Source of the DNA: an uncultured Chryseobacterium sp.
GTDB taxonomy: Bacteria; Bacteroidota; Bacteroidia; UBA10329
Length of the DNA: 64,000 nucleotides
Assembly: GCA_964500205.1 (NCBI GenBank)
Contig: CAZCNS010000004.1
Coordinates: 98,260-162,259, forward strand
Direction: 5' to 3'
Each line of letters opens with the position of its first letter. Position 1 is the first letter of the stretch. The position numbers and the translations under genes were made by a program. Of this stretch, positions 15,956 to 54,600 are shown piece by piece. Below the pieces are notes generated by a model. That model made no database searches and had not been told where the DNA came from. It worked only from the letters and a program-made list of their open reading frames with translations.

Positions 15956-16227
15956 TTTGCTTTGATATGATATGCACGGGCGGATGGGTAGCAGGTATCT
16001 TTTTCGGGAGAATGGTAGCGTGCGGATGAGGGAGGGCCGGCAGGCCGCCCGCAGGGAAGGTGAACTGATGGTGGAGGAGCAAGAGCTTGTCGGAATCGTG
16101 TAAGGACATCCCGCAGATGGAGATACGTGATACACGTATGTGCAAAAGACGGGCGATAAAGGCAATAAAAGTTACTAAAATAAATGATCCGCAAAAATCT
16201 CGTGTTGATGTATTTCAATATGCAATC

Positions 16228-16236
16228 TATTGTTTG
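16228..16236 (+). promoter_or_regulatory. Bacteroidetes-type -7 promoter element TATTGTTTG (TAnnTTTG consensus), with a TTG about 23 bp upstream
   Basis: Lies 42 bp upstream of the ATG at 16278. Matches the sigma-A -7 consensus known for Bacteroidetes. Confidence 0.4.
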
Positions 16237-16277
16237 CCAGAAATTTGCGACCATGTCTAACCTTAAAAACAAACAAA

Positions 16278-17249: not shown

Positions 17250-17450
17250 AGACAACGCCCTTGTGTGCCCAGAGGGCCGTGCTTCCGAATGGGGGCGCGG
17301 CCTTTTTTCATTTCCACAGGGGCATCAGCGGCCCTCGTCTCTCGTCCCCCGTCCCTTCGTTGAGCGAAGCGAACTCCCGCCCAAGCGGGACACCCAATCG
17401 CAAATCGCAAATCGTTAATCGTTCTTCGCCAATCCCTCGCCCCTCGCCCC

Positions 17451-18245
17451 TCAATCCAAAAACCCCCTCACCGCCCTCATAAAACCCTCCGCATCCTCTG
17501 CGTGCAGCCAGTGGCCCGCCTCCAAGGCGTGGAACTGTGCGTTGGGGAAAAGCTCCCGGATCCCCGCCTCGTCCTCCGGCAGGATGTACCGCGACCGCGT
17601 GCCACGGATGAAGAGGGCCGGCACCTCGCTGCCATGCGGCACCGGCAGACCCATCTCTCCGATGTCCATCGCCAGCACATCGAGGTTGAAACGCCACGCG
17701 TAGCAAGGCTCACCGTCCGCGTTCTTCCCCCGGTAGATGTTCTTGGTGAGGAACAGCACCACATCGCGCTCCTCTATGAACCGCGACAACTCCTCCTCGG
17801 CCTCACTGCGCGAGGCCACGTTCGGCAGGTCTATCGCCTGCATCGAGCGGATGATGAGGTCGTGGTGTATCGGATACGCCTTCACGCCCATGTCGGCCAC
17901 GATGAGCCGGCTCACCAGCTCGGGGTAAGCTGCCGCGAAGCGCATGGCCGTCTTGCCGCCCATGCTGTGGCCTATCACCACCGCGTCCGCGATGTCGTGG
18001 TCTGTGAAGAAGCGGTGCAGGTCCTCTACCATGCCCGCGTAGGTGTGCGTGTCCGTATGGGGCGAGTGCCCGTGGTTGCGCTGGTCCACGGCATAGACGT
18101 GGTAATGCTCGCCCAGCGTTCTGGCAATGCCCGCCCAGTTGTCCAACGACCCGAACAGCCCGTGCAGGATCACCAATGGCCTCCCCGAGCCGTATTCCTT
18201 ATAGTTCAGTGCTACAGTCTCCATGCCCGCAAAGGTCGTGAGCAT
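17451..18245 (-). CDS. Alpha/beta hydrolase (esterase YbfF-like)
   Basis: HGLFGS oxyanion region and GHSMGG nucleophile elbow. Its start overlaps the toxin stop, giving a TGATG coupling sequence. Confidence 0.8.
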   Translation of the reverse strand: MLTTFAGMETVALNYKEYGSGRPLVILHGLFGSLDNWAGIARTLGEHYHVYAVDQRNHGHSPHTDTHTYAGMVEDLHRFFTDHDIADAVVIGHSMGGKTAMRFAAAYPELVSRLIVADMGVKAYPIHHDLIIRSMQAIDLPNVASRSEAEEELSRFIEERDVVLFLTKNIYRGKNADGEPCYAWRFNLDVLAMDIGEMGLPVPHGSEVPALFIRGTRSRYILPEDEAGIRELFPNAQFHALEAGHWLHAEDAEGFMRAVRGFLD

Positions 18246-18789: not shown

Positions 18790-18967
18790 TTGAATCGGAT
18801 AAGCAATACAAAAATACAAAGCCATACTGTGCGCGGTCAGGGTGGAACATGTCACTGCTCAATACCGGTCTCTGTCCTCCGTCCGTTGAACGCAGTGAAA
18901 TCCCGCGTCTGCGGGATCCCTCGTCCCCCGTCCCCCGTCCCTCGTCCCCATCAACAATCAACAATCA

Positions 18968-24111: not shown

Positions 24112-25272
24112 ATGTCAGTAAGAATAGACCGAGAGATGCTAGGGTCTCTCAGCAACACCGCAGCGCAGTTCAGGGCAGTGATGGTCGTGGGCCCGAGGCA
24201 ATCTGGAAAGACCACCCTTGTGCGAACCACGTTTGCAGACAAGCCCTATGCATCGCTCGAGAATCCTGATGAGCGGCTGCTGGCCGAGCGCGACCCGCGT
24301 GCATTTCTCGGCCGATTCCCTGACGGGGCCGTTCTGGACGAGGTGCAGCGCGCACCGTCCATTCTCAACTATCTACAAGAGATACTCGACAACACAGAGA
24401 AGGACGGGCTTTTCATCCTTACGGGCAGCAACAATATCCTCTTGCAAGAGAATATCAGCCAGACACTTGCGGGGCGGGTGGGCGTGCTTGACCTTCTGCC
24501 CCTGAGTTTTAAGGAACTGAAACAAGCGGGCATCGACATGGGTCTTGACGAGCTGATTCTGAAAGGTGGCTACCCCGAAGTGCATGGCAAGGGCCGTGAC
24601 CCCAAGGCATGGTATCCTGCCTATGTCAGAACCTATGTGGAGCGGGATGTCCGTCAGGTAAAGAACATCGAGAACACGCTGCTTTTTACCCGCTTTCTCC
24701 GTCTGTGCGCGGGCCGTGTTGGTCAGATGCTCAATGCCTCGGCCCTCAGCAACGAGTGCGGCATTGATGTCAAAACAGTCAACGCGTGGCTGTCGGTGCT
24801 TGAAAGCACTTACGTGATAAAGATGCTCACCCCGTTTCACAGGAATTTCAATAAACGCATCACCAAATCCCCCAAGCTGTATTTCGTTGATACCGGGCTG
24901 GCCTGCTCTCTGCTGGGAATACGGAGCGTCAATGAATTGGCACTTTCGCATTTCCGAGGAGCACTGGCGGAGAATCTTGTCGTGGTCGAGGCATGGAAAA
25001 ACGCTCTGAATGCAGGTCGGCACGATGCATTTCACTACTGGCGCGACAACAAAGGAGTGGAGGTGGACCTGATAGTGGACAGCGGGCAGGATTTCATGCC
25101 TATTGAAATAAAGTCTGCCAAGACCTTCTCGGAGGATTTCCTGAAGAACATCAACAAGTTTCAAGAATATGCCGGTGGTTCAGCAGGTACGTTGCTCTAT
25201 GACGGCACTATGGAGTTCACCACCTCCGACAACGTACGTGTGTGCAACTGGAAAACCTTTCTGATGGATTGA
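24112..25272 (+). CDS. AAA+ ATPase, DUF4143 family (COG1373-like)
   Basis: Walker A VVGPRQSGKTTL and Walker B ILDEVQ. C-terminal DUF4143-like region. Lies in a low-GC segment. Confidence 0.8.
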   Translation: MSVRIDREMLGSLSNTAAQFRAVMVVGPRQSGKTTLVRTTFADKPYASLENPDERLLAERDPRAFLGRFPDGAVLDEVQRAPSILNYLQEILDNTEKDGLFILTGSNNILLQENISQTLAGRVGVLDLLPLSFKELKQAGIDMGLDELILKGGYPEVHGKGRDPKAWYPAYVRTYVERDVRQVKNIENTLLFTRFLRLCAGRVGQMLNASALSNECGIDVKTVNAWLSVLESTYVIKMLTPFHRNFNKRITKSPKLYFVDTGLACSLLGIRSVNELALSHFRGALAENLVVVEAWKNALNAGRHDAFHYWRDNKGVEVDLIVDSGQDFMPIEIKSAKTFSEDFLKNINKFQEYAGGSAGTLLYDGTMEFTTSDNVRVCNWKTFLMD

Positions 25273-27005: not shown

Positions 27006-27431
27006 TCATTTGAACATGTCCTCAAATTCTGCTTTGGTCAGAATATTCAGTCGTTTGAACTTTTCTTCGAGACGGGCTTTCTCCTGAAGAATGTGTCTGT
27101 CCCCACTTGTTATAAAGCCGCTGTTGGTCTGGAGGGCAAGGGCGACCACATAATCATCGTCCCTATCGGCAGGGATATACCTTTTGATGGGCGGCTTGAG
27201 TGCGAACGGGATGGTGTTGTCTCGGATGAAGCGCAGTGCATAGCTCCTATTCACACCGTACTTCTCAAGGTGCGGATAAGCGAGCACCCTGCGAATTTCG
27301 GTCAGCAGTTCCTCACAGCAGAAAATTGCAATTCGATGTTCGGCAATGATCTGCAACAGGGTCTCTTCCTGCCTTCCGATGAGGTAACTAACCCATACGT
27401 TTGCATCCAACACGAACCTGTCCTTACGCAT
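27006..27431 (-). CDS. PIN-domain toxin (TIGR00305-like toxin-antitoxin PIN family)
   Basis: About 141 aa from the internal ATG MRKDRFVLDANVWVSYL. Acidic PIN residues are present. Its start overlaps the upstream small gene. Confidence 0.65.
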   Translation of the reverse strand: MRKDRFVLDANVWVSYLIGRQEETLLQIIAEHRIAIFCCEELLTEIRRVLAYPHLEKYGVNRSYALRFIRDNTIPFALKPPIKRYIPADRDDDYVVALALQTNSGFITSGDRHILQEKARLEEKFKRLNILTKAEFEDMFK

Positions 27432-27642
27432 CCGCTTGGCGCGACAGGTGTTTGATACGGTCAATCTCTTCCAATGAAGGCGCGCTCAGACCTTTGGGCA
27501 TAGCTGTTCTGTCAGGGATGCCATCACTCAGGAGCTTCCTCGCACGGAGGCTTATAAGCAGGGCCTGCTGCTGCTCATTGCTCATGGCTTTCAGTTCAAC
27601 CATCAGCTCCTTGAGCATCATATCAGTATCAGAGGTGGGCAT
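27424..27642 (-). CDS. Putative antitoxin partner of the PIN toxin
   Basis: 72 aa small helical protein whose 3' end overlaps the PIN gene start, as is typical for TA operons. No family assigned. Confidence 0.45.
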   Translation of the reverse strand: MPTSDTDMMLKELMVELKAMSNEQQQALLISLRARKLLSDGIPDRTAMPKGLSAPSLEEIDRIKHLSRQADA

Positions 27643-27832: not shown

Positions 27833-27872
27833 CCGTAAATCATCAGTTTAACTGACGATTTACGGGGTTGAA
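27833..27872. promoter_or_regulatory. 36-40-bp palindrome CCCCGTAAATCATCAGTT|AACTGACGATTTACGGGG immediately upstream of the second DUF4143 ATPase gene
   Basis: The arms are reverse-complementary with one mismatch. The element sits at the 5' end of the 27868 ORF, before the alternative start at 27919. Confidence 0.5.
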
Positions 27873-29076
27873 TTTTTCTATCTTTGCGGCCGTCATGGCA
27901 CTAACGAGGATATTTGATATGCGGCTGTTGAAGCTGCTCCGGACCTTCCCGGCTGTGGGCCTGATAGGTCCGAGGCAGGCAGGCAAGACCACGGCTGCCA
28001 AACTGGTGCAGCGTCAACTGAAAAAGCCGGCCATCTATCTCGACCTCGAAAGTCCGTCTGATTTCCGCAGATTCTCCGACCCCGAGCTGTTCCTCACAGA
28101 GCTGGAGGACACCTGCGTCATCATTGACGAGGTGCAGCGGATGCCCGAGCTTTTCCCACTGCTGCGCTCACTGATAGACCGCAACCGTAAGCCCGGACGG
28201 TTCCTGCTGCTGGGTTCGGCCTCGCCTGAGCTGGTAGCGGGCGTGAGCGAGTCGCTGGCGGGGCGTATCAGCTATCTGGAGGCGCATCCCTTCCATATCC
28301 TCGAACTTCCCGACCGTCCGACAACGCAGCGGAAACACTGGTTCCGTGGCGGATTCCCCGATGCGTGGAAGGCCCGCAGCGATGATGCTCGTTTCGAGTG
28401 GACGGACAACTTCGTGCGGACGTTCGTGGAGCGCGACCTCAACATGCTCTTCGGTACATCATTCTCCCCTCAGGTGATGTTCCGCCTCTGGCGAATGTTG
28501 GCACATCACCATGGAGGGGCGTGGAACGCGCAGTCCATCGCCAAGGCACTTGACATGAGCCCGACCACGGTGAACCGCTACGTGGATTTCCTCGAAGGGG
28601 CGTTCATGCTGCGCAGGCTCGCGCCCTACCACGCCAACACCCGCAAACGCCTGAGCAAGACACCGAAGGTCTATGTGCGTGACAGCGGGCTGCTGCACTA
28701 CCTGCTCGACATCAACCGGGCGGCCGATCTGCTCTCGCACCCATCGGTGGGGCATTCGTGGGAAGGGCATGTCATCGAGCAGATCATCGCCCTGCTGCCA
28801 AGGACAATACAACCGTTCTACTACCGCACCCATGACGGGGCGGAAATGGACCTGGTGCTGGTGAAAGGGGTCGCCCCGATAGCCTCCATCGAGGTGAAGC
28901 TGACGCTCTCGCCCACCGTGACGCGCGGGATGCGGGAAAGCATCAAAGACCTGGGCACAGCGCAGAACTTCATCATCACCCCGCAGGATTCGCCTTCCTA
29001 CCCCATCGCTGACGATATCCGTGTATTGGGGCTGCGGGAGTTCGTCACCACGCTGCTCCCGAAGTTGGTGAAATGA
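27868..29076 (+). CDS. AAA+ ATPase, DUF4143 family (second copy; diverged paralogue)
   Basis: Walker A LIGPRQAGKTT and Walker B IIDEVQ. The alternative start MRLLKLL at 27919 lies downstream of the palindrome. Confidence 0.8.
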   Translation: MNFSIFAAVMALTRIFDMRLLKLLRTFPAVGLIGPRQAGKTTAAKLVQRQLKKPAIYLDLESPSDFRRFSDPELFLTELEDTCVIIDEVQRMPELFPLLRSLIDRNRKPGRFLLLGSASPELVAGVSESLAGRISYLEAHPFHILELPDRPTTQRKHWFRGGFPDAWKARSDDARFEWTDNFVRTFVERDLNMLFGTSFSPQVMFRLWRMLAHHHGGAWNAQSIAKALDMSPTTVNRYVDFLEGAFMLRRLAPYHANTRKRLSKTPKVYVRDSGLLHYLLDINRAADLLSHPSVGHSWEGHVIEQIIALLPRTIQPFYYRTHDGAEMDLVLVKGVAPIASIEVKLTLSPTVTRGMRESIKDLGTAQNFIITPQDSPSYPIADDIRVLGLREFVTTLLPKLVK

Positions 29077-33526: not shown

Positions 33527-33644
33527 TTGTGAAGTGATTTTTTAGCATTTAAGGATGAAGGAAATGGGACGGGGGACGAGGGACGAAGGACGAGAGTGCG
33601 CGGTACGAACCATTTTCAATTTTCAATTTTCCATTCACTGAGTT

Positions 33645-42009: not shown

Positions 42010-43224
42010 TCATTGGTTTCTTATTGCTTCAACAGGATTTAATCCCAACGCCTTTCTCGCTGGGTAAACGGCCGCAAGCACCGCCATTACCGCCACCATC
42101 CCCGCCACCTCGAAGTAGGATTTCGTGTCGAGGTGCGGATGGATGATGTTCGAGAAGCCGAGGTCTGCGTATGCGGCCGAGCCGAGGTCGATGCCTACCT
42201 CCCCGAAATAGGTGACAAACGCCCACGACAGCAGCAGCCCCAGCGGCCCGCCTATCATGGTGAGCATGACGGTCTCCAGCAGTATCATGCTGAACACCCG
42301 CGCCTTGCCCATGCCCACGGCCATCAGCACGCCTATCTCGCGCACCCGCTCCAATACGGCCATCAGCATGGTGTTGAGGATGCTGAACAGCAGCGCCACC
42401 AGTATGATGCCCACGATGAAATAGACGTACACCCCGATGACCTCCACCATGTAGCGCATGCCCGTGGCGAGGTCGAGCCAGAGCAGCACCTCCAGTTCGG
42501 GGTGCGCCTCCTGATACTTGGCGGCCAGCGGCTCGGCCAGGTCGTGGTCGCGCAGGGCCACGGCTATCTGATGCACGCCCGATTCGATGTGAAGCAGGTT
42601 GCGAAGATCCTGCTGACGCACGTAGAGCTGCATCTCATCGAACATGCCGTTGCCCGACTCGAAGATGCCCACCACACGGAATGCGCCCGCGATTATTTCA
42701 CCCTCCACGTCCTGCACAGTCAGCACCAATTTGGATCGCAGTTCCACGCCATACTTGTCCGCCACCTTGCGGCTGATATAGACGGGCGTGCGGCCCTCAT
42801 CGCTCAGGTATTCACCATCGGTCACCTTGGCATCGATGCCCGTGACAGCCGCCTCGTCAGTAGGATTCACGCCCACGATGCGGATGGCCCCCGATTGCCT
42901 TGCCGAGGCTACCATGCCCATGCTCACCAGCCGTCCTGATACGCCTGCCACCGCTGGCTCCTCAAGCACTTCGGCCATGATGCCGTCTGCGTTCGGAATG
43001 TAGAGCTTCGTCAGGAACTCATCCTTGAACCCTGGCACATGGAACTGGAAGTCGCTGTATTCCAGTTTGATGACGCTTTCCACCTTCTGCACCATCATGC
43101 CCTGCACAAACGCAGATGCGAATACCCCCGCCAACAGTCCGATGGCAATGGCCATGATGACCACGAGGCTGCGGGTACGGTTGCGCCAGATGTTGCGCCA
43201 AGCGATTTTTATAAGCATAGCCAT
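42010..43224 (-). CDS. ABC transporter permease, FtsX/LolC-E family
   Basis: N-terminal TM helix, large periplasmic domain and C-terminal three-TM FtsX domain. Start taken at MAMLIKIAW. Confidence 0.8.
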   Translation of the reverse strand: MAMLIKIAWRNIWRNRTRSLVVIMAIAIGLLAGVFASAFVQGMMVQKVESVIKLEYSDFQFHVPGFKDEFLTKLYIPNADGIMAEVLEEPAVAGVSGRLVSMGMVASARQSGAIRIVGVNPTDEAAVTGIDAKVTDGEYLSDEGRTPVYISRKVADKYGVELRSKLVLTVQDVEGEIIAGAFRVVGIFESGNGMFDEMQLYVRQQDLRNLLHIESGVHQIAVALRDHDLAEPLAAKYQEAHPELEVLLWLDLATGMRYMVEVIGVYVYFIVGIILVALLFSILNTMLMAVLERVREIGVLMAVGMGKARVFSMILLETVMLTMIGGPLGLLLSWAFVTYFGEVGIDLGSAAYADLGFSNIIHPHLDTKSYFEVAGMVAVMAVLAAVYPARKALGLNPVEAIRNQ

Positions 43225-43352
43225 TCGCTTTTCGCCTTTCGCTCTTCGCGGAAAAGGCACTGGTTTTTCGGTTGTGCTTCTGCAAACATTTTTCTTCGAA
43301 TCTCTGTGTGCTCAATGGTTCGGTGGCGAACAGTGAACAGCGAACGGCTTTC

Positions 43353-44579: not shown

Positions 44580-44760
44580 AAGCTTTTAGCTGCAAGCCGC
44601 AAGCGGGAGGAAGCTTCAAGCTTCAAGCTTCTGGCTTCAAGCGATGGGCGCATGTTACATTCGTTTCTTGATGAACGGCTTATCATGGGTGCTTGGTGTC
44701 TTGCTTGTAGCTTGAGGCTAAAGGCTTGCAGCTACATATTTGAAGCTAACGGCTTGCAGC

Positions 44761-45138
44761 TTACTTGTTTTTAATGTCACGGTTGATGGTGGCGATGAGA
44801 CCGCTAATCATGCGCTGTTCCTCCTCGATGGCTGCAAGGGCCTTGTCAATCGATCCTTCGGGACTGTTCGGGGCAAGTTCAAGCTCTTTAATAATGAGCA
44901 ACTGGGTCTCCAGTTCAAATGCGCTGCCAAGGCTTATCTCAAGGAAACGCCTGTAGTCGGGGTCGCTGAACCTGCTGCTGCCCTCCGCGATGTTGGACGG
45001 AATGGAGACGGCTGCCCGAGTCATCTGCGACCTCAGTCCATATCTCTCCTCATCAGGCAGGAACCGAGATACAGCATAAACCTGTTTCACAATACCCATC
45101 CCCTGCTTCCAGATCTTGAGTTGCTTGAAGTTTTTCAT
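44761..45138 (-). CDS. Four-helix-bundle protein (TIGR02436 family)
   Basis: 125 aa helical protein with the ...AVSIPSNIAEGSSR... signature of this family. Local GC is lower than the flanks, and the gene is flanked by GCTTGCAGC-type repeats. Confidence 0.7.
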   Translation of the reverse strand: MKNFKQLKIWKQGMGIVKQVYAVSRFLPDEERYGLRSQMTRAAVSIPSNIAEGSSRFSDPDYRRFLEISLGSAFELETQLLIIKELELAPNSPEGSIDKALAAIEEEQRMISGLIATINRDIKNK

Positions 45139-45254
45139 GTTTCGATGATTTAGAGTTGTTCAACAAATGTATTTCCCCCACCACATTACCCTTGCGGTCT
45201 TCGCTTCGCTTCACGTGGCGCTTGAAGCTTGCGGCTTATGGCTTGCAGCTTCGC

Positions 45255-46070
45255 TCACTTCACATTCTTCATATTGGACGTACTGAAAAACGAATCCTCA
45301 ATCGGTTTGTCGAATTCGATCGAGGTTATCTCCATCATCGTCTTGTTGCCTGGCTTATCGACTGGGATCATCTCCATCTTGGACGCCAGCTTTTTCCCAC
45401 CCAATTCCTTGATGTCTGATGAGTTGAGGATGTTGATGAGGTAGCCGTCCTCGTCATACATCTCGCTGCGGAGCTGGATGAAGTCGGCTTTGTCGATGAA
45501 GAGGATGATGCGGCCCCAGACCACGGCTGCATCGGGCTTGGGGTCGAGTTGGATTTTCCAGCAGTTGCGTCCGAGAATGGTGCTGTCGCCCACGATGCTG
45601 TGGGTGTAGTCGTTGAGGGTCGATGATTCGCGCACGAGGTCATCGTTGGTGAAGTCGGTGCCCATCCAGCTCTGCATCATCATGCTGGGCGGCAGTTTGA
45701 TGGTGCGCTCAATGCTGGGCATCCAGTTCCATATCTCCTTCTCGCGCTTGAGGAATGCCGTTCCCCTGTCCTTCGCGGGCGAACGGACGACCGAGAGGCT
45801 GAAATCCTCCCCCTTGCTCCAACTCTTAAGAGTCATCTCGCGGGTCCACTTGGGACGCACGGTGGTGATGGTCATCTCGGTGATGGCCGATTTGGTGCCG
45901 CGCATCTTCTGGTCGGCCATCTCGATGATTTCGCGGACGGTTTGAGCTTGAGCTGCAAGCTGTACGCTACAAGCCACAAGCACGAGGAGCGGCAAGCGAT
46001 AAGCCACAAGCCGCGAGCGCGATTTGAATAGCGCAGGAGTGAGGGTTAGGATGGTTTGATTTTTTGTCAT
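45255..46070 (-). CDS. Outer-membrane lipoprotein-sorting (LolA-like, DUF4292-type) protein
   Basis: Signal peptide, about 250 aa of beta-rich sequence, and context with the LolCDE-like ABC genes. Confidence 0.55.
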   Translation of the reverse strand: MTKNQTILTLTPALFKSRSRLVAYRLPLLVLVACSVQLAAQAQTVREIIEMADQKMRGTKSAITEMTITTVRPKWTREMTLKSWSKGEDFSLSVVRSPAKDRGTAFLKREKEIWNWMPSIERTIKLPPSMMMQSWMGTDFTNDDLVRESSTLNDYTHSIVGDSTILGRNCWKIQLDPKPDAAVVWGRIILFIDKADFIQLRSEMYDEDGYLINILNSSDIKELGGKKLASKMEMIPVDKPGNKTMMEITSIEFDKPIEDSFFSTSNMKNVK

Positions 46071-46880: not shown

Positions 46881-47777
46881 TCAGAGATGTGCGGCAATTT
46901 CCCGCGCCATCAGCCTTGCCGCCAACGGATGATGCCGCAGCCACAGCTCAGGCTCTATCAGTTCCAGCTCGGTGAGTGCCGACCTGCCATCATTGTCTCG
47001 GATGATGTCCGCACGGGCATAGACCGGTGCAATGCTGCAGGCGGCAACAGCGTTCTCAGCGAATTCAATCTCTTCCGAAGTCGGCTCGTAAGTCATGGCC
47101 GTCCCCCCGAAATCATCCTGCACCCGGAAGTCGCCCGCCTTGGCCCGCTTCAACACCGCATGGGAGTATTTCCCCCCGATGACCATCAGGCTCATCTCGC
47201 CTTGTTCTACCACGTTGTGTTGGAAAGGCTGCAACAACATGGCCTCGTTGCGGGTCAGTTCGTGGAAGATGGCATCGTGCATTCCCAGATTGTTCTGGTT
47301 CAATCGGTAGGTGTGCCGCGCAGCCCCAGCGATGGCGGGTTTCAGAACGGTCTCCGTCCAACCTGTCCGAGCGTGTATTCCTAGCAATGATTCCTCCGTC
47401 CCAGCCTCGATGAACAGCGTCTCAGGAATGTGGATACCGCGTTGGTTCAGGTCGCGGAGGTAGTGCTTGTCCCAGTTCCAACGGATAAGTGCGGGCGGAT
47501 TCACAAGCTTTGTTCTCTGCTCCACCATCGCCAACCAATCCCTGAACTCAGCGAAACGGTTGAAGTAGTCCCACGTGGTGCGGAACACGGCCATTTGCGT
47601 GCTTCCCCAGTCGAAATCGGGGTCTGCCCAGTCCTTCCTCATCACGCGGAGGCCCAGTTTCTCCAACTCGGCCGTGAGCAATGCGTCATCCTCCAGAATC
47701 TGACGGGCGTACCAGTCTGGGTTTACGGGGTTGACGTAGCGAGACTCGGTGAGGAAGACGATATCGAATTCGGGCAT
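46881..47777 (-). CDS. ATP-grasp family protein (RimK/GshB-like)
   Basis: 298 aa with a central ATP-grasp pattern (LVLKPAIAGAARHTYRL ... MVIGGKYSHAV). Confidence 0.6.
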   Translation of the reverse strand: MPEFDIVFLTESRYVNPVNPDWYARQILEDDALLTAELEKLGLRVMRKDWADPDFDWGSTQMAVFRTTWDYFNRFAEFRDWLAMVEQRTKLVNPPALIRWNWDKHYLRDLNQRGIHIPETLFIEAGTEESLLGIHARTGWTETVLKPAIAGAARHTYRLNQNNLGMHDAIFHELTRNEAMLLQPFQHNVVEQGEMSLMVIGGKYSHAVLKRAKAGDFRVQDDFGGTAMTYEPTSEEIEFAENAVAACSIAPVYARADIIRDNDGRSALTELELIEPELWLRHHPLAARLMAREIAAHL

Positions 47778-47825: not shown

Positions 47826-47864
47826 CGAATTCCCCCTCTCCTTGGGAGAGGGGTCAGGGGAGAG
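47826..47864. repeat. 39-bp element GAATTCCCCCTCTCCTTGGGAGAGGGGTCAGGGGAGAGG; its inverted-orientation copy is at ~48720-48758
   Basis: The two copies match exactly as reverse complements. Each contains the 9-bp-stem hairpin CCCCTCTCC-TTG-GGAGAGGGG. Together they flank the 47868-48617 hydrolase gene. Confidence 0.85.
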
Positions 47865-47867
47865 GTC

Positions 47868-48617
47868 TCACACCCTCTCCTCCAACCAAGGCCCCAGCAG
47901 CCTGTTGAACTCCTCGGGGTGCTCCATCATGGGCGCGTGGCCGCACTTGTCAATCCAGAAAAGGGACGAATCAGGCAGCAGCTGGTGAAACTCCTCGGCC
48001 ACCTCGGGCGGGGTCACCGTGTCGTTGCGGCCCCAGATGAGGCACACAGGGATGGTGATGCTCGGTAGCTCATCGCGCATGTTGTGGCGGATGGCCGATT
48101 TCGCGATGGCCAGAATGCGGAACAGCTTCGACTTGTCGTTGATGATGCCGAACACCTCCTCCACCAGCTCGTCCGTGGCGTTGGCGGGGTCGTAGAAAGT
48201 GGTCTCCACCTTGTTGCGGATGTAGCTCCTGTCCTCCCTGCGCGGGAACGAACCCCCGAACGCATTCTCATACAGCCCCGAACTGCCCGTGAGGATCAAT
48301 GCCCGCACCATCTTCGGGTGCTTCACGGTATAGACCAGTGAAACGTGCCCGCCCAGCGAGTTGCCCAGCAGCGTCACGTCCTTGTAGCCACGGTCGTTGA
48401 TGAACGTGTGGATGTAATCGGCCAGTGCTGGGACGTTCGTCCTTTTCAAGGGAAGGTCATAGATGGGCATGAGCGGGATAACCACTCTGTAGCGCTGGGA
48501 GAAATGCCCCAGCACATGGGTGAAGTTACTCAGCGCACCGAACAGCCCGTGTAGCACGATAAGCACTGGCCCCTCGCCCTGCTCAATGAATCTGTGCTGT
48601 CCCTGTTCCTGTATCAC
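47868..48617 (-). CDS. Alpha/beta hydrolase
   Basis: HGLFGA and GNSLGG motifs. GTG start. Flanked by the inverted 39-bp elements. Confidence 0.75.
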   Translation of the reverse strand: MIQEQGQHRFIEQGEGPVLIVLHGLFGALSNFTHVLGHFSQRYRVVIPLMPIYDLPLKRTNVPALADYIHTFINDRGYKDVTLLGNSLGGHVSLVYTVKHPKMVRALILTGSSGLYENAFGGSFPRREDRSYIRNKVETTFYDPANATDELVEEVFGIINDKSKLFRILAIAKSAIRHNMRDELPSITIPVCLIWGRNDTVTPPEVAEEFHQLLPDSSLFWIDKCGHAPMMEHPEEFNRLLGPWLEERV

Positions 48618-48719
48618 TGCTCCTGTTTATGGACTTCAAAATTAGAAAGCCGTTCTGCGCCCCTGTTGGCTTTTATCAATGAAAGGAAAGGTTCTCGGAA
48701 GGATAATGTTCAAAGTTGA

Positions 48720-48758
48720 CCTCTCCCCTGACCCCTCTCCCAAGGAGAGGGGGAATTC
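48720..48758. repeat. Inverted copy of the 39-bp hairpin-containing element
   Basis: Exact reverse complement of 47826-47864. Confidence 0.85.
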
Positions 48759-48805
48759 GGGGCGCGCCATTCGCCATATTCGTACCCATTCGAAATTAGC
48801 AACCA

Positions 48806-50467
48806 TCAAAAACTGAAGTGAAGCCCCGCAATGAAACTGAACCGCTGTGACGGATACCTGTCCCAAAGCTCATAGCGCATCGCACCGATGTTGCGGAAGT
48901 CCACGAACGCGCCCAGCCATTTCTTGTAGCGGTATTCCACCCCGAGGTTCGCATCCACGAAGGCATCCAGCCCGATCTTGGTATAGCGTTCCCCGAACGG
49001 GGTGACCTCATAACCCCGCGCCACCCGCTGACTCTGCGCCACGATACCCGCCTTGAAGATGAACTTGTCATTCAGGTTGTAATTGGCCCCGAACTGGAAC
49101 CTGAACGGTGCCTCGTGCCACGGGGCGATGCTGTCGCTCGGCATGGTGAAGAAGCGGTAGTCCGCCTGCGCCACCAGTTGCAGCTTCTCTTTCAGGTGGT
49201 AGCTCAGCTCACCGCTGATGCTCGTCACCATCACATCGTGATACTCTGGCGTGAAGCGGTTGCCCACCCCGTCACTCCAGTCGTTGACCCAGAACAGCTG
49301 CTGGCCCGTGATTACCTGCGCCACGCTGATGTCGTAGGCCAGCCCTCGGAAGATGATACCCTTGAAACCGCCCCACACGTTCAGTCGCTCCCAACTGTTG
49401 CTCAGCGTCAGGTCGGTGAGGGCGAAGGGGTTCACCTGCGAGATGGTGCGCAGGCCGTTGCGCTGCACCCCGCCCTTGGCCCCCGCATAGAAGCGGAAGA
49501 TGTCCTGCACCAGGAAATAGTGGAAGTCCAGCACGGGGAACACCATCACCTGGGTCGTGGTGTCGTTGATGTCGAGCGAGAGGTTGGCGCCCACCGCAAT
49601 GCCCCACCGCTTGCGCACCGCACGGAACTCAGGCTCGAAGCCGATGACCCCGTTGTTCAGCGACTGCGTGGGCATGTCGTTGCGCCAGTAGTCGCCCGTG
49701 ATGCGGCCGTAGAGCTTCTCCTTCTTGATGTTGAACACCAGTTCCACATCGGCCTTGGCGTGATGCTCGCGGCTGGCGAAGCGGTCGGTGGTGAAACCGT
49801 AGCCGATGCCCGCGCGGTTCAGGTGGCGCAGCTTCTTGCCGTCCTGCATGGCCGCGAGGTCCATGCTCACACCGATGTGGTGGAACGACTGGCGGATGTC
49901 ATTGTCGGCAAAGGCCGTGTCCTCTGGGTTGTAGCCGTAGAAGAAATTGCCATCATGGTCGTAGGTGATGCGCTCGGTGAGGGTGTGGCCCTTGAAGAAC
50001 TTCTTGCCGAAGAGGTCAACGCCCGCATCGGTGAAGCCGAACGGACGGCCGTCAAGCTCTGCGAACGAGGCGTGGTAGCGCGCAAACCCGCCCGCTTGGA
50101 ACGACTTGCTGCGCAGGCTGCCGAAGCTCGCCTCGAAGAACGGCATGGTGTAGTTGCCGAAGCCCACCTTGAGGTGGCCGCTGCGCAGCTTGGTCAGCGG
50201 CTCGTTGGCCAGCTGGGCCGCGTTCAGGGGCTGGGTCTCGTACTTCAGCTCCTGCCGCACGGGCAGCACCGAGTACTCCATCTCGGGCAGGGCGGCCGTG
50301 TCCGTAGGCACTTCGGGTGCGGGGATGATGCGCTGTGCATCCCGCGCCACGGGGCGGTACTCCTTCCTGATGGTGAACCGCAGACTGTCGGGCAGGGTCT
50401 GCTGGGCCACCACGGGCAGCGTGAGCAGCATCGCTCCGAGGGTCAGTATGCGGGGTAGTTGCTTCAT
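48806..50467 (-). CDS. Outer-membrane beta-barrel protein (putative porin), hypothetical
   Basis: Signal peptide MKQLPRILTLGAMLLTLPVVAQ. 553 aa with amphipathic beta-strands and a C-terminal ...GLHFSF. Confidence 0.55.
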   Translation of the reverse strand: MKQLPRILTLGAMLLTLPVVAQQTLPDSLRFTIRKEYRPVARDAQRIIPAPEVPTDTAALPEMEYSVLPVRQELKYETQPLNAAQLANEPLTKLRSGHLKVGFGNYTMPFFEASFGSLRSKSFQAGGFARYHASFAELDGRPFGFTDAGVDLFGKKFFKGHTLTERITYDHDGNFFYGYNPEDTAFADNDIRQSFHHIGVSMDLAAMQDGKKLRHLNRAGIGYGFTTDRFASREHHAKADVELVFNIKKEKLYGRITGDYWRNDMPTQSLNNGVIGFEPEFRAVRKRWGIAVGANLSLDINDTTTQVMVFPVLDFHYFLVQDIFRFYAGAKGGVQRNGLRTISQVNPFALTDLTLSNSWERLNVWGGFKGIIFRGLAYDISVAQVITGQQLFWVNDWSDGVGNRFTPEYHDVMVTSISGELSYHLKEKLQLVAQADYRFFTMPSDSIAPWHEAPFRFQFGANYNLNDKFIFKAGIVAQSQRVARGYEVTPFGERYTKIGLDAFVDANLGVEYRYKKWLGAFVDFRNIGAMRYELWDRYPSQRFSFIAGLHFSF

Positions 50468-50497: not shown

Positions 50498-51592
50498 CTA
50501 TAGTCTTATTTCTGATGACACATCCTCTAGGAGTTGTATGAAATCTCTTAACATAGATGTATTCAGTTTTTTCGGATTATGCACCAAATCGTTTCTAAAT
50601 CTTCGTAAACTATCGAGTTTGGCTGCCATCCCTGAATCAATCTTTTCCGCACGACTAACAGTTCGAATTGCTTCGAGCATCGTGGGGTTGCGACTGGTAG
50701 AATCTCCCACATGACTTATGAGCTTCTCTTCCAACTCAGCCCACTTCTGCAAAAACTCACCAACATCACCCGTCTGGAGTCCCTTATCCGCGAGGTCTTT
50801 TATTTCCTTACATAAATGAAAAATTGGGTCGTTGTCAGGATACAAGGACAATTTTGGGATTGGGTCAAAGCCATCACCCCAAAACGACTTATTAGTTGGA
50901 ATCTGGAACTTCGCCACTAGTCTTCGGTTAAAGTCCAATTCTGTTTTGTGCTCGTAATTGTAAGTGATTTCATCAGTTCCTGCCAAGTAACCTTCTTGAA
51001 AGTACGGTCTTAACGCAGTTGGGGGGCAAATGGACAGCAGTCTTATGTTGACCAAATCATGTTCAGAATTTATCGTTATTCTATTTGTTAGATAAGGTAG
51101 CCCAAATACAAATATGTATGCACTATCACCTTCATTTCCCATTGTAGCAAATGAGCATGCTACTCTCAGCGAATGGGTGAAATCGAGATATGGTGTATCA
51201 CAAACCTCATAGTGCTGAAGAACACTCCATTGCACCGCTTTTCTTCTCTTCAACTCCTTGAAGCCTTCAATTTCTTTCTGTTCAAACAGCTCAACAAGTG
51301 CTCTACTTGCACCCTCCAAAACATCGAATTTTCTTCGCATGTCTCGATGAAGGACGTATTCACCACGGTAGATGCTTGGATAAAAAGTAGAACTACCTGC
51401 CTTATTTCTATAGTCCTTGGATTGTCCCCTGTAGAAAAGCAGATGGTCTTTATTCTTAAAAGAAAGCTTCGCAGTTTGTTCCACCAGTTCACGGAAGGTC
51501 TTCACCTGATACGCATCAGACGAACCAACCTTGGTGTTTTCACCAAAGTGACTCAGTAACTCCTCCGTAAGTGTTGGCTGAATGTCTCGCAT
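50498..51592 (-). CDS. FRG-domain protein with C-terminal HEPN-like (Rx4H) domain; candidate defence/abortive-infection effector
   Basis: The FRG signature LLFYRGQSKDY...FYPSIYRG ... LQHYEVCDTPYLDFTHSLRVACSFA is read directly. The C-terminal helical region carries LRRFRNDLVHN, matching the HEPN R-x4-H motif. The gene is about 40% GC, 14 bp downstream of the TPR gene stop, with an internal ATG (MRDIQPTL) preferred as start. Confidence 0.6.
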   Translation of the reverse strand: MRDIQPTLTEELLSHFGENTKVGSSDAYQVKTFRELVEQTAKLSFKNKDHLLFYRGQSKDYRNKAGSSTFYPSIYRGEYVLHRDMRRKFDVLEGASRALVELFEQKEIEGFKELKRRKAVQWSVLQHYEVCDTPYLDFTHSLRVACSFATMGNEGDSAYIFVFGLPYLTNRITINSEHDLVNIRLLSICPPTALRPYFQEGYLAGTDEITYNYEHKTELDFNRRLVAKFQIPTNKSFWGDGFDPIPKLSLYPDNDPIFHLCKEIKDLADKGLQTGDVGEFLQKWAELEEKLISHVGDSTSRNPTMLEAIRTVSRAEKIDSGMAAKLDSLRRFRNDLVHNPKKLNTSMLRDFIQLLEDVSSEIRL

Positions 51593-51605
51593 TACTTCAC
51601 ATACA

Positions 51606-54600
51606 TTATTCCTCCTCCACTTCCTCAACCCCCTCAAAAAGCTTCGCATCGCGTTGCCGTTCCTGCTCAAATTCCACCTCGAACGATGAACCGTCCTGCC
51701 GTTCCTGTAGGCGCGGCTGCGCGGCATTGATGGCGTCCAGCTTCTTCTGCGCATCCTCCTTGAGCACACCGAGGTAGTTGTCCACCACGTTCTGCAATGT
51801 GAGCTTGGCCTGGAAGAGGTCGCCCTGCTTCTCGTAGCTGTCGGCCAGCAGGATGAACGCCTTGGCTATCCACACCTTGTAGTTGGGGAAGATGTTGACC
51901 ATCTCGAACACCATGCGCTCGGTCTCCTCATAGTTGCCGCTGAGGAACTGGATGCGCGCGAGGTTGTACATGGCCTCGGCCCCCATCTCGCTGTTGCTGC
52001 GCAGCAGGGTCTCCTGAAAACGGGCCTCGGCCATCCGCAGGTCGTTCTGCGCCAGCGCGCACTTGGCGGATATGAGGTGGGCCTCGCTCACCAGTTCCTG
52101 CGGGGCGCGGTCGGCACGGATCACCTTCTGGGCATACTCCTCGGCCTGCCCGAAACTGTTGAGTGCAAAGTGGCTGCGCATCAGTCCCGCGCGGGCCTCC
52201 AGCAGGTTGTCCGCCCGCTCGGCCAGCTCCTCCAGCATGGTGAAGCGCAGCATGGCCTCCTGGTGCCGCTGCTGTGCGGTGTAGATGCGCCCAGCGGCCA
52301 GCAGCGACCGCTCGGTGAAGCCGTTCTTGGCGAAACTCAGCACCTTGTCGTAGCCGCGCAGGGCATCGTCATACATCCTGAGCTGGTTGGCGGCCTCGGC
52401 CTGATAGAAGTGCGCGTTGAGGGCGAAATACCCGTTGGGGAAGCGGTCGAGGTAGCCGCCCAGCTCCTTGATGGCGTTGCTGAGGTCGCCCCTTACGTAG
52501 CGCAGCTCCGCAGCCTGATAGTAGGAGGTGTCGAGCGCGCCCTTGGTGATGTCCGGGAAGTCCTTGGAGGCCATGTAAGTTTCAAACCCAGCCACATCGG
52601 TGTTCTCGATGTATATCTTCTGAATCTTCATCAGCGCCTCCTTGGCCTCGGGCGTGGCGGGGTGGTTCTCGGCCACATCCTTGAAGACGGGCAGGGCGCG
52701 GTCGTCATCGCTCTGGTTGTAGAAGATGAGGCCACGGTTGAGCTTCGCCCTGCGCATGTAGCTGCTGTTGGGGTGCTCGGCAATGATGCGGTCGAACCAA
52801 GCGAGGGCATCGGTGGTGTTGTCCATGAAGAAATAGGTCTCGCCTATCTCGTATTTCGCGTCAGCGGCAAATCCCGTCCTGGGGTAGTTGTCGAGCATGG
52901 CCTTGAGCGTCTCGACCTTGCTGGCCGACTTGCCCTGAATGCCGTAGCACACGGCTATCTGGAAGATGGCGTAGTCGGCATCGGGCCGCTGCATCCGCAG
53001 GGCGCGGTCGTAGAATTCGATGGCGAGGCCAGGGTTGCGCTGCAGATAGTAGCAGTCGCCTGTGCGCATGTGGGCATCGCTGATGCGGGCGCTGTCCTGC
53101 CCCGTCAGCTCGGTGAACCTGCGGAACCACGATGCGGCCTCGGTGTAGTTCTCCTGGTCGAAATAGAGGTAGCCCATGCCGTAGTGCGCCATGCCGTACT
53201 CAGGCAGGCGGATGGCCCCTGGCGACTCGATGAAACTCGTGTAGTACTCCTGCGCGGCCTTCGGCTTTTTCATGCGGGCATACGCCTCAGCCTTCCAGAA
53301 ACGGCCCTGCGCAAGGGTGTGCTGGTCGATGGGATATTTCTCGGCAAGGTGGAAGAAATGCACCGCCCGCTCGAACTTGAGGTCGTGCATCAGCTCGGTG
53401 CCACGGGTGTAGGCCACGCGCTGATAGGTGCGCTGCAATTCGGGGTCCTTCTTCTTGATGCGCTCGATGGCATCGATGGCGGCCTCGTAGTTGCGGGTCA
53501 CCAAGTAGATTTGGAGCAGGAAGCTGTACGATTCGTCAATCCGCTCGCTCTCTGGGTGGCTGGCGATGTACTCGCTGAACGCCTGCACGGCCTCGTTATA
53601 GGGGTCGAAGCTGAGTTTGTAGGCCAGCTTCGCGAAGTTGAACAACGCGTCCTCCTGCAGTTTCTCATTGAACGAGAGGCGCGATGCGGAACGGAAGGCG
53701 TTACGGGCCTGCATCTTCTGCCCGTCCTTGAGGTGGCAGTCGCCCATGTGGTAGTACGACAGTTGGGCCATGGCGTCCTGCTCACGCACTACCTGACTGA
53801 AATAGTTGACGGCCTTGGTGCAGTCGCCCGCGCGGTAGCTGGCATAGCCGAGCTTGTAGCGGTCATCGCGGTTGCCGCCCAGTTCGGCCACGGCCTGTTC
53901 GAGGTGCGGCACGGCCTTGGCGTAGCGTTCGAGGCTGTAGTTGGCCTCACCGAGAATGCGATGCACCTCGCCCGTCTTGCCCTTGGCGAAGTCCTTCTTC
54001 AAAAGGGCCTCTCCGTAAGTAATGACCTCCTCGTTGTTCTGCTGGCGGTAGAGTATCTGCAGGATGTAGAACGGCACGGTGCTGCCGAACAGCGCATCGT
54101 CCTCCAACTCGCGGAAACCCTTGAGGGCCATCTCGTTGTTGCCTTTCCGATAAAGGATGTAGGAATTGTAATAGATGGCGGGCGAGCGGTATTTCTTGCC
54201 GCCTTTCATCACGTGGGCCAGCGCGTCCTGCGCCTCGGGGTACTGCTCCTGCTGGAAATGCGCGTAGCCTTTCTTGAAGTAGAATTCCTCCAGATAGGAG
54301 TCGTCCAGCTCGTGGGGGTCCACCTTGGCGAACGCATCCGTCACAGCTTTGAACTTTTTCCTGTGGAAATGGCTGCGTCCGAGATGGAAATGCGCGTCCA
54401 CCGACTTGGGATGCTCTGGGTGCGAGGCCACGAAGCCTTCCATCATCGGCTCACCATCGGGGTTGAAGAGTTCCAGCGCATCGAGGGCGGAGTAGAACCC
54501 GCTGTTCTCCACGATGATGGAGGGCAGTTCGTCCCTGCGCTGCAAGGCACGGTCGAAGTGGTGCTGCGCCACGGAGTATTTCTGTTTCTGCTGATGCTCC

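What the first reader, a model, noticed from the sequence alone, without database searches (positions are those of the whole stretch)
47826..48758. Perfect 39-bp inverted repeats, each with an internal 9-bp-stem hairpin, bracket a single alpha/beta-hydrolase gene
GAATTCCCCCTCTCCTTGGGAGAGGGGTCAGGGGAGAGG at 47826-47864 and its exact reverse complement at ~48720-48758 flank the 750-bp hydrolase gene. Each copy lies within ~100 bp of the gene end. Perfect identity over 39 bp implies recent copying or gene conversion. The geometry (IR-gene-IR) is that of an invertible segment or a minimal composite element. Alternatively both are copies of a palindromic terminator/REP-like element placed in opposite orientations.
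Basis: seen in the sequence. Interest (0 to 1): 0.55.

Follow-up and report, generated by a model that had tools for sequence, protein, structure and literature searches.

The report
Triplex-prone intergenic repeats flanking a hydrolase
The two perfect inverted repeats are copies of a known kind of short intergenic repeat (BoxC/"intrastrand triplex motif") sitting in the spacers either side of an ordinary, conserved hydrolase gene; they mark an unstable stretch of chromosome, not an invertible switch or a transposon.

Summary
The arms are 42 nt long, 100% complementary (47826-47867 and 48718-48759), and are the only two copies in the 64-kb window.

Each arm has three blocks: CCCCTCTCC, loop TTG, GGAGAGGGG, loop TCA, GGGGAGAGG. 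The third block is the exact mirror image of the second. This is the class II purine-motif "intrastrand triplex" architecture, known as BoxC, PIT or TM (Holder et al. 2015). It is known from E. coli and many other bacteria, is always intergenic, shows no strand bias, often occurs as inverted pairs, and is linked to local hypervariability.

The hydrolase is a conserved core gene of uncultured Flavobacteriales. In all 15 related loci it has the same position and orientation relative to its upstream neighbour, including loci that lack the repeats. No recombinase or transposase was found among 47 window ORFs scanned.

Close relatives show every combination at the two spacers: a single motif, an inverted doublet, a MITE-like insert, a toxin-antitoxin pair, or nothing. 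Orthologous motifs differ by changes that keep all three blocks matched.

Verdict: a new member of a known kind. The invertible or composite-element reading is not supported. The "REP-like element in opposite orientations" alternative is supported. Interest is low.

The parts
47826..47867 (+). Left arm, one 42-nt repeat unit with the motif read on the + strand. Head CGAATTC 47826-47832; pyrimidine block CCCCTCTCC 47833-47841; loop TTG 47842-47844; purine block GGAGAGGGG 47845-47853; loop TCA 47854-47856; mirror purine block GGGGAGAGG 47857-47865; tail TC 47866-47867. It abuts the hydrolase stop codon (47868-47870).
48718..48759 (-). Right arm, the identical 42-nt unit with the motif read on the - strand. 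Mirror block 48720-48728; loop 48729-48731; purine block 48732-48740; loop 48741-48743; pyrimidine block 48744-48752; head 48753-48759. It lies 46 nt after the stop codon of the 553-aa gene and 100 nt before the hydrolase start.
47868..48617 (-). Alpha/beta-hydrolase gene (249 aa, GTG start). A conserved core gene of uncultured Flavobacteriales, not cargo.
48637..48644 (-). TAATTTTG, matching the Bacteroidota -7 promoter box TAnnTTTG, 19 nt upstream of the hydrolase start. It lies inside the segment bounded by the arms and is conserved in relatives with and without the repeat. This is an inference from the published consensus.
   Evidence: sequence; consensus from general knowledge
48760..48805 (-). 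Spacer with CGAAT / ACGAAT short repeats between the stop of the 553-aa gene and the right arm. The head of the repeat unit (CGAATT) looks like the last unit of this array. The same array is present in L002, L008, L010, L011 and L127.
47873..47883 (-). Last codons of the hydrolase (GGAGGAGAGGG). They resemble the purine block and can pair with the outer block of the left arm, forming a second hairpin in the mRNA.
48806..50467 (-). Upstream neighbour, a 553-aa protein with no Pfam hit. It is always directly upstream of, and co-directional with, the hydrolase in relatives.
46881..47777 (-). Downstream neighbour, an ATP-grasp (RimK/DcsG_N-like) gene. The spacer to the hydrolase holds the left arm.

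Best explanation
Each arm is one copy of a roughly 42-nt G/C-rich intergenic repeat of the BoxC / PIT / 'triplex motif' class. The unit is a pyrimidine block, a 3-nt loop, the complementary purine block, a 3-nt loop, and a mirror copy of the purine block.

Shown here: the sequence architecture, its intergenic position, its occurrence elsewhere, and the hypervariability of both spacers among relatives.

Inferred from published work on the E. coli members: when the G-rich strand is single-stranded (during replication, repair or transcription) it can fold into a 9-bp hairpin with the third block laid on as a reverse-Hoogsteen strand, giving 9 G*G.C / A*A.T triads. Such structures stall polymerases and provoke slippage, deletion and repair-associated change, which makes the spacers unstable.

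The two copies occupy two separate 'safe' spacers. One lies after the stop of the 553-aa gene and before the hydrolase promoter. The other lies right after the hydrolase stop. Their inverted orientation is the usual one for paired motifs of this class, here spread 850 nt apart by the gene between them.

Their 42/42 identity most likely reflects recent gene conversion, or re-copying of one copy from the other, in this lineage (inferred). The hydrolase is a bystander. Nothing is inverted or mobilised as a unit.
For: Architecture: perfect class II motif with 9 triads and loops of 3 and 3 at both arms, the only two in the window, and 0 in 100 shuffles.

Published definition and properties of the class (PMC4666352): intergenic, no strand bias, 5 inverted pairs among 23 copies in E. 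coli K-12, flanks hypervariable between strains, no mobility genes nearby.

Direct comparison with an E. coli K-12 pair in the hrpB-mrcB spacer: TTCTCCCTCTCCC-TGT-GGGAGAGGG-CCG-GGGTGAGGG plus an inverted partner, starting 13 nt after a stop codon.

Same family elsewhere: 111 stretches with the 18-nt tail, about half carrying the matching hairpin, from at least six phyla. These include Flavobacteriales MAG copies 96-98% identical to the window unit at unrelated loci. There is no hydrolase homologue near any of them and no orientation bias relative to flanking ORFs.

Three-block covariation: T/C in block 1, A/G in block 2 and A/G at the mirrored position of block 3 go together (Fisher p = 1.7e-4). 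At the orthologous upstream site the window has the TCTCC/GGAGA/AGAGG form, whereas L010 and L127 have TCCCC/GGGGA/AGGGG.

Inverted doublets of two class II motifs occur at the same site in L008 and L010, and in a Chryseobacterium MAG.

Hypervariability: within each of two subclades (93-97% identity within, about 85% between) the upstream spacer holds a single motif, a doublet or a roughly 300-nt MITE-like insert. The downstream spacer holds a motif, a degraded motif, a toxin-antitoxin pair or nothing.
Against: Only two copies occur in 64 kb, both next to one gene, and the relatives' roughly 80 kb of flanks hold motifs only at these two spacers. A dispersed multi-copy family has therefore not been demonstrated in this organism.

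Triplex formation in double-stranded chromosomal DNA was not detected in vivo even for the E. coli members. The structural mechanism therefore remains an inference.

The literal E. coli pattern CCCTCNCCC...GGGNGAGGG is not matched. Homology between sequences this short and low in complexity cannot be proven, and convergence is possible.

The covariation counts include related sequences and are not independent.
Confidence: 0.75

Rival explanations
1. REP/REPIN-type selfish repeat. The unit, or an inverted doublet of it, is mobilised in trans by a RAYT-like (Y1/HUH) transposase encoded elsewhere in the genome. The two arms are recent insertions from one master copy.
For: It is a short extragenic palindromic unit with a conserved non-palindromic head and tail. 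Inverted doublets about 45-75 nt apart occur in L008, L010 and L068, resembling REPINs. Copies nearly identical to the window unit sit at unrelated loci in another Flavobacteriales MAG. The 42/42 identity fits recent copying.
Against: No Y1 transposase or other transposase was found among 47 window ORFs scanned. No recurrent neighbouring gene appears across 111 loci. Copy number is low: at most 5-6 exact tails in any species-representative genome and 2 in the Flavobacteriales MAG. No mobility gene was found near the E. coli members either. A hairpin-recognising transposase does not explain the mirror-repeat rule for block 3.
Confidence: 0.1
2. RNA-level element. The 9-bp GC hairpin acts in the transcript as a terminator or 3'-end stabiliser after the 553-aa gene and after the hydrolase. 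Alternatively, the two arms pair over 42 bp in a polycistronic RNA and form an RNase III site that excises the hydrolase message.
For: Both arms sit just downstream of stop codons, 46 nt and 0 nt away. The hairpins are stable in RNA, with a 70-nt context of -35 kcal/mol and z = -2.7 for the left arm. In L002 the two arms also keep complementary ends of 18 and 11 nt.
Against: There is no U-tract, and the terminator scan does not call either arm. The arms are in opposite orientation relative to transcription, yet their asymmetric head and tail are conserved, which points to DNA-level constraint. According to the paper, PIT elements showed no promoter or terminator activity in E. coli, and purine-motif triplexes do not form in RNA. 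There is no orientation bias in other genomes. There is no Rfam match; the best is whalefall-1 at 15 bits against a threshold of 37.
Confidence: 0.08
3. G-quadruplex / hairpin / duplex switch, the reading of Kaplan et al. 2016 for the same E. coli elements. The G-rich half folds into a G4 that competes with the hairpin and regulates transcription of neighbouring genes.
For: The relatives' variants GGGGAGGGG-TCA-GGGGAGGGG have four G4 tracts with loops of 1, 3 and 1 nt (L010, L127). The E. coli units were shown to switch between G4 and hairpin in vitro (PMC5100583).
Against: The window variant has interrupted tracts (GGG, GGGG, GGGG, GG) and fails the four-tract G3+ rule, as does L002. It nevertheless keeps a perfect mirror (triplex) rule. 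What is conserved across variants is therefore the three-block match rather than G4 potential.
Confidence: 0.05
4. Invertible segment or minimal composite element. The arms are recombination sites that flip or mobilise the hydrolase.
For: The geometry is IR-gene-IR, and 42 bp of perfect identity is long enough for occasional homologous recombination.
Against: The orientation and position are the same in 15 related loci, including repeat-free ones. No recombinase was found in the window. No target-site duplication is present. The gene carries its own promoter inside the segment, so inversion would have no switching effect.
Confidence: 0.02

Closest known systems
BoxC / PIT (potential intrastrand triplex) / TM_ECO elements of E. 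coli and other bacteria (Holder et al. 2015, NAR 43:10126, PMC4666352; earlier Hoyne/Maher 2000 and Bachellier, as cited there)
   Same: Both have three blocks: a C-rich 9-mer, a 3-6-nt loop, the complementary G-rich 9-mer, a 3-nt loop, and a second G-rich 9-mer that forms reverse-Hoogsteen triads. Both are strictly intergenic, with either strand used. Both have inverted pairs and near-identical copies. Both have flanking DNA that is hypervariable between close strains, and no associated mobility gene. The core sequence is very similar (CCCTCTCC / GGAGAGGG).
   Different: The register and loops differ: CCCCTCTCC-TTG-GGAGAGGGG-TCA-GGGGAGAGG here, against CCCTCTCCC-TGT-GGGAGAGGG-TTA/CCG-GGGTGAGGG in E. 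coli. The literal TM_ECO pattern is therefore not matched. The third block here is all purine and an exact mirror. The host is an uncultured Flavobacteriales bacterium. The unit carries a CGAATT head. The inverted pair is 850 nt apart with a whole gene between, instead of tens of nt. Copy number in this genome is unknown and appears low.
HPGQ groups 1 and 2, the 'G-quadruplex-hairpin-duplex switch' of E. coli (Kaplan et al. 2016, PMC5100583)
   Same: These are the same E. coli elements seen from the G4 side: a G-rich block preceded by a conserved C-rich block, intergenic, near 3' ends, and often paired on opposite strands.
   Different: The window copies lack four runs of three or more Gs. Only some relatives' variants qualify.
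REP / BIME / REPIN elements mobilised by RAYT transposases
   Same: These are short extragenic palindromes, often in inverted doublets, placed after stop codons.
   Different: No RAYT was found. Copy number is low. The element is defined by a mirror-repeat third block, which REPs lack.
H-DNA / mirror-repeat non-B DNA hotspots
   Same: Both have a homopurine-homopyrimidine mirror repeat that can form a triplex and is associated with instability.
   Different: Here all three strands come from one strand (an intrastrand triplex on a hairpin), not from fold-back of a duplex mirror repeat.

Membership tests
Class II purine-motif intrastrand triplex repeat (BoxC/PIT/TM sensu Holder 2015) | 5' pyrimidine block, loop of 1-6 nt, complementary purine block, loop of 1-6 nt, and a 3' block giving G*G.C / A*A.T triads (mirror of the purine block); stems 6-15 nt with at most 1 mismatch | tested here: met
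   Both arms have 9 of 9 triads and loops of 3 and 3. There are 2 such loci in the window and 0 in 100 shuffles.
Class II purine-motif intrastrand triplex repeat (BoxC/PIT/TM sensu Holder 2015) | Intergenic location with no strand bias; inverted pairs occur | tested here: met
   Both arms are intergenic and on opposite strands. Inverted doublets occur in L008, L010 and L068. There is no orientation bias in other genomes. An E. coli pair was inspected directly.
Class II purine-motif intrastrand triplex repeat (BoxC/PIT/TM sensu Holder 2015) | Several dispersed, nearly identical copies per genome | tested here: inconclusive
   There are two copies in 64 kb, both beside one gene, and the source genome is not available. 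A Flavobacteriales MAG has 2 copies at unrelated sites, and an Anaerolineaceae MAG has at least 5.
Class II purine-motif intrastrand triplex repeat (BoxC/PIT/TM sensu Holder 2015) | Flanking DNA more variable between close strains than ordinary spacers | tested here: met
   There are three alleles upstream and four downstream among loci whose flanking genes are 84-96% identical, and these are shared across two subclades. No matched control spacers were analysed.
Class II purine-motif intrastrand triplex repeat (BoxC/PIT/TM sensu Holder 2015) | Literal TM_ECO pattern CCCTCNCCC N3-6 GGGNGAGGG N3 GGGNGAGGG | tested here: not met
   The window unit reads CCCCTCTCC TTG GGAGAGGGG TCA GGGGAGAGG, against the pattern quoted. 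It is a sister variant, not TM_ECO itself.
Class II purine-motif intrastrand triplex repeat (BoxC/PIT/TM sensu Holder 2015) | Forms a stable intrastrand triplex as a single strand in vitro | not testable with these tools
   The folding tools model only Watson-Crick hairpins.
REP/REPIN with RAYT | A RAYT (Y1/HUH transposase) gene in the genome, typically flanked by its REPs; tens to hundreds of copies | tested here: not met
   No such domain was found in 47 window ORFs scanned. No recurrent neighbouring gene appears in 111 loci. The whole genome could not be tested.
Site-specific invertible segment | Both orientations exist; invertase nearby; inversion changes expression | tested here: not met
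   There is one orientation in 15 related loci. No recombinase was found in the window. A complete gene and its promoter box lie inside the segment. Read-level data could not be tested.
Composite transposon / MITE carrying the gene | Terminal repeats with target-site duplication; presence or absence of the whole unit between relatives | tested here: not met
   There is no duplication at the junctions. The hydrolase is present at the same site in relatives without repeats (L001, L004-7, L009, L125, L126, L128).
Intrinsic terminator | GC-rich hairpin followed by a U-tract | tested here: not met
   Neither arm is called by the terminator scan, and there is no T-run after either orientation.
Canonical G-quadruplex motif (G3+ x4) | Four runs of at least three G separated by 1-7 nt | tested here: not met
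   The window unit has runs of 3, 4, 4 and 2 G. L010 and L127 meet the rule.

The most novel reading that the evidence does not exclude
The motifs at these two spacers may be kept by selection rather than being junk. They persist at orthologous positions across lineages about 15% diverged, with three-way compensated changes that preserve triplex-forming potential. In this genome they have been homogenised to a perfect 42-bp inverted pair. The pair could act as a functional non-B-DNA or long-range RNA device. Examples would be a replication or transcription insulator bracketing the hydrolase, or a recombination hotspot pair that promotes allelic exchange of the hydrolase cassette between strains. 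That would give a first functional role to a repeat class which has had none since the 1990s.
Probability: 0.07. Interest if true: 0.55.

Novelty: new member of a known kind. Interest (0 to 1): 0.2.

Why it matters
It removes a false lead: this is not a phase-variable or mobile hydrolase.

It extends the BoxC / intrastrand-triplex repeat class to uncultured Flavobacteriales. It also gives a tidy natural experiment. Two spacers beside one core gene carry, in closely related strains, a single motif, an inverted doublet, a degraded motif, a MITE-like insert, a toxin-antitoxin pair or nothing. That supports the published link between these motifs and local genome instability.

The three-way compensated changes at an orthologous site are modest comparative evidence that the third (mirror) block matters, rather than the hairpin alone.

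How such motifs are copied, and why nearly the same 33-nt sequence occurs in at least six phyla, remains unexplained.

Tried and rejected
- Exact-protein look-up of the window hydrolase found nothing on record. Homologues were used instead.
- Rfam at gathering thresholds and at E up to 10 gave only chance-level matches: Pab91 at 21 bits against 71, and whalefall-1 at 15 bits against 37.
- A literature search for the literal sequence returned only unrelated eukaryotic primer hits.
- The first metagenome scan, using the GAATT head and a variable gap, found 0 matches. The second, using the fixed 33-mer, found only two near-identical contigs and was uninformative.
- A search for a gene recurrently next to the motif across 111 loci found none.
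- My crude ORF-based orientation analysis put 29 of 61 scored motifs 'inside' long stop-to-stop ORFs of GC-rich genomes. Only the remainder were used, so the absence of orientation bias is weakly supported.
- The terminator and promoter scans called neither arm.
- I considered an attC / integron cassette, a dif/Xer site and a CRISPR repeat. All were rejected from the sequence: there is no R'/R'' core, no 28-bp dif-like site and no array.
- I searched the window for the relatives' MITE-like element (CGCAAAGGRCGCAGAG) and found no convincing copy.

Full report
**Observation**

It has no mismatches and never appears in shuffled sequence.

The repeat finder extends the perfect inverted repeat to 42 nt, 47826-47867 and 48718-48759, with 850 nt between the arms. 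Each arm contains a 9-bp stem (CCCCTCTCC/GGAGAGGGG) with a 3-nt loop.

The enclosed ORF, 47868-48617 on the minus strand, is an alpha/beta hydrolase. The left arm touches its stop codon. The right arm lies 100 nt upstream of its GTG start and 46 nt downstream of the stop codon of the preceding 553-aa gene. All three genes (553-aa, hydrolase, ATP-grasp) are on the minus strand.

**Anatomy**

The unit is CGAATTC | CCCCTCTCC | TTG | GGAGAGGGG | TCA | GGGGAGAGG | TC. The last 9-mer is the exact mirror image of the second 9-mer.

That is the signature of a class II purine-motif intrastrand triplex: a pyrimidine block, a loop, the Watson-Crick purine block, a loop, and a reverse-Hoogsteen block. I wrote a scanner for this architecture (stems of 8 or more, loops 1-7, at most 1 mismatch, both strands). 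It finds only these two loci in 64 kb, each with 9 of 9 triads, and none in 100 first-order Markov shuffles.

**Is the hydrolase mobile or invertible?**

The hydrolase has thousands of close homologues in uncultured Flavobacteriales. I fetched 15 related loci with 84-97% protein identity.

- In every one where the upstream gene is visible, the 553-aa gene is directly upstream and co-directional.
- This includes loci with no repeat at all: L001, L004-7, L009, L125, L126 and L128.
- Pfam scans of 47 of the 53 window ORFs of 90 aa or more found no transposase, invertase, integrase or Y1/HUH protein.
- No target-site duplication flanks either arm.
- A sequence matching the Bacteroidota -7 promoter box (TAATTTTG, 48637-48644, minus strand) lies inside the bounded segment. 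It is conserved in relatives with and without repeats. Inversion would therefore move a self-sufficient gene and switch nothing.

The invertible or composite-element reading is not supported.

**What relatives show at the two spacers**

By identity of the 553-aa gene the close relatives fall into two subclades. One holds the window, L001 and L008 (93-96%). The other holds L002, L009 and L010 (95-97%). Identity between them is about 85%.

The upstream spacer holds one of three states:
- A single motif, in the window, L002/L003, L011 and L127.
- An inverted doublet of two class II motifs, in L008 and L010.
- A roughly 300-nt MITE-like insert with no motif, in L001 and L009.

Each of the two subclades contains all three states; L003, L011 and L127 were not placed in that comparison.

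The downstream spacer holds one of four states:
- A motif, in the window and in L002/L003. In L002/L003 the hydrolase ORF reads into it, ends ...GPLP and uses loop 2 (TGA) as its stop.
- A partly deleted motif that still forms a hairpin, in L011.
- A 66-aa plus zeta-toxin-like gene pair, in L001, L008 and L010.
- Nothing, in L009 and L127.

More distant relatives (L004-7, L125, L126, L128) have short spacers with no motif. Both spacers are therefore hotspots of structural variation, with alleles shared across subclades.

**Compensated variation**

The orthologous upstream motifs read as follows:
- Window: CCCCTCTCC/GGAGAGGGG/GGGGAGAGG
- L010: CCCCTCCCC/GGGGAGGGG/GGGGAGGGG
- L127: CCCCTCCC/GGGAGGGG/GGGGAGGG
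- L002: CCCCTCC/GGAGGGG/GGGGAGG

A T-to-C change in block 1 is matched by A-to-G in block 2 and by A-to-G at the mirrored position of block 3.

The same association appears in the cross-phylum set, where 12+15 concordant cases stand against 1+4 discordant ones (Fisher p = 1.7e-4). The sequences are not independent, so this is supportive only.

The window variant fails the canonical four-tract G-quadruplex rule yet keeps the mirror rule perfectly. What is conserved is therefore the three-block match rather than G4 potential.

**Distribution**

I scanned one genome per species for the 18-nt tail GGGGTCAGGGGAGRGGTC and found 111 stretches. About half carry the matching (TT)CCCCTCYCC hairpin immediately upstream. 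They come from Cyanobacteria, Chloroflexota, Bacteroidota, Alpha-, Gamma- and Delta-proteobacteria, Binatota and Gemmatimonadota.

A Flavobacteriales MAG has two copies with the same GAATT head, 96-98% identical to the window unit, at loci otherwise unrelated to the window. A Chryseobacterium MAG has an inverted doublet.

None of the 113 motif-bearing loci encodes a homologue of this hydrolase, and no gene recurs next to the motif. Copy number per genome is low, at most 5-6 exact tails.

**Identification**

A literature search led to Holder et al. 2015 (PMC4666352). That paper describes 'intrastrand triplex motifs', earlier called BoxC and PIT elements. The E. coli pattern is CCCTCNCCC-N3-6-GGGNGAGGG-N3-GGGNGAGGG.

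As reported there, these elements are:
- always intergenic, with no strand bias;
- present as 23 copies in K-12, including five inverted pairs;
- remarkably conserved in sequence;
- not associated with mobility genes, and without promoter or terminator activity in earlier tests;
- stable triplexes in vitro as single strands, but not detected in vivo;
- flanked by significantly hypervariable DNA among 56 strains.

I inspected one K-12 pair directly, in the hrpB-mrcB spacer. It shows the same layout and starts 13 nt after a stop codon. Kaplan et al. 2016 (PMC5100583) describe the same E. coli elements as a G-quadruplex/hairpin/duplex switch.

The window unit fits the class definition and behaviour. 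It does not fit the literal E. coli pattern, because the register and loops differ. It is a sister variant in a different phylum.

**Mechanism**

Shown here: the architecture, intergenic placement, inverted pairing, cross-lineage occurrence, lack of linkage to the hydrolase, and hypervariable spacers.

Inferred from the E. coli work: transient hairpin or triplex folding of the G-rich strand during replication or repair causes stalling, slippage and error-prone repair. That would generate the observed deletions, replacements and insertions.

Also inferred: the 42/42 identity of the two window copies reflects recent gene conversion or re-copying between them. The corresponding copies in L002 and L011 differ from each other.

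One detail may have helped the motif settle at this junction. The hydrolase's own last codons (GGAGGAGAGGG) resemble the purine block and can pair with the outer block of the left arm.

**Rivals**

- REP/REPIN-RAYT mobilisation: doublets exist, but there is no RAYT, copy number is low, and it does not explain the mirror rule.
- RNA-level terminator, stabiliser or RNase III stem: the position after stop codons fits. However, there is no U-tract, the arms lie in opposite orientations yet keep conserved asymmetric ends, and E. coli tests were negative.
- G4 switch: the window variant fails the G3+ rule.
- Inversion or composite element: refuted as far as assemblies can tell.

**Verdict**

The feature is real and the two arms are not a chance match. 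It is a new member of a known class of non-B-DNA-prone intergenic repeats, and the hydrolase is a bystander. Interest is low.

Two points remain unexplained, as they are for the whole class: how such motifs are copied, and why nearly the same sequence recurs across phyla.

Noticed in passing
window 6666-6695, 17332-17452, 18917-18967, 33566-33635, 43220-43345, 44611-44642: Many intergenic spacers are filled with short tandem arrays of 7-nt units (CTCGCCC, CCCTCGT, AATCGCA, TCCCCCG, GGGACGA, AAGCTTC and others). The ACGAAT-type repeats next to the right arm belong to the same style.
   Followed up: partly
window 44611-45255: A 23S_rRNA_IVP (four-helix-bundle) gene, 44761-45138 (-), is bracketed on both sides by AAGCTTC / GCTTGCA-type heptamer arrays, like a small inserted cassette.
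   Followed up: no
window 14475-16290: A low-GC patch (0.50 against about 0.58 elsewhere) holds an HNH_2 endonuclease ORF (14475-15257) and a 42-nt unit repeated 4.3 times in tandem at 15760-15939 with 92% matches. Its function is unknown.
   Followed up: no
window 50498-51769: An FRG-domain ORF sits in a low-GC patch between the TPR gene and the 553-aa gene. Relatives have nothing there (L004) or other genes (L001: 506 aa plus an ASCH-like ORF; L002: 431 plus 261 aa). This is a second variable slot in the same neighbourhood.
   Followed up: partly
L001 6772-6972, L008 2159-2756, L010 2282-3095: A 66-aa ORF, followed in L010 by a 200-aa ORF with a weak Zeta_toxin hit and in L008 by a truncated 129-aa ORF of unknown family, occupies exactly the spacer that holds the downstream motif in the window; in L001 only the 66-aa ORF was called.
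   Followed up: partly
L001 5596-5900; L009 2592-2900: A roughly 300-nt MITE-like element, with terminal inverted repeats built from CGCAAAGGRCGCAGAG units and an internal hairpin, replaces the ACGAAT array plus triplex motif upstream of the hydrolase. No convincing copy occurs in the window.
   Followed up: partly
L002 5004-5018 (and L003): The hydrolase ORF runs into the downstream motif, gains a GPLP C-terminal extension and uses the motif's loop-2 TGA as its stop codon. C-termini of close homologues differ (…ERV, …ERVG, …ERVGPLP, …ERVGIAS, …ERVVSRE), which marks a breakpoint right at the stop codon.
   Followed up: yes
window 24112-25272 and 27868-29076: Two paralogous AAA_14/DUF4143 ATPase genes flank a Mg-chelatase-like gene and a PIN-domain ORF (27006-27464). 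This may be a small defence or toxin-antitoxin neighbourhood.
   Followed up: no
L016, L020, L075, L106 (Anaerolineae and other MAGs): In some genomes the 12-nt unit GGGGAGGGGTCA is repeated several times in tandem after the hairpin, and the motifs sit at contig ends. This suggests they break short-read assemblies.
   Followed up: no
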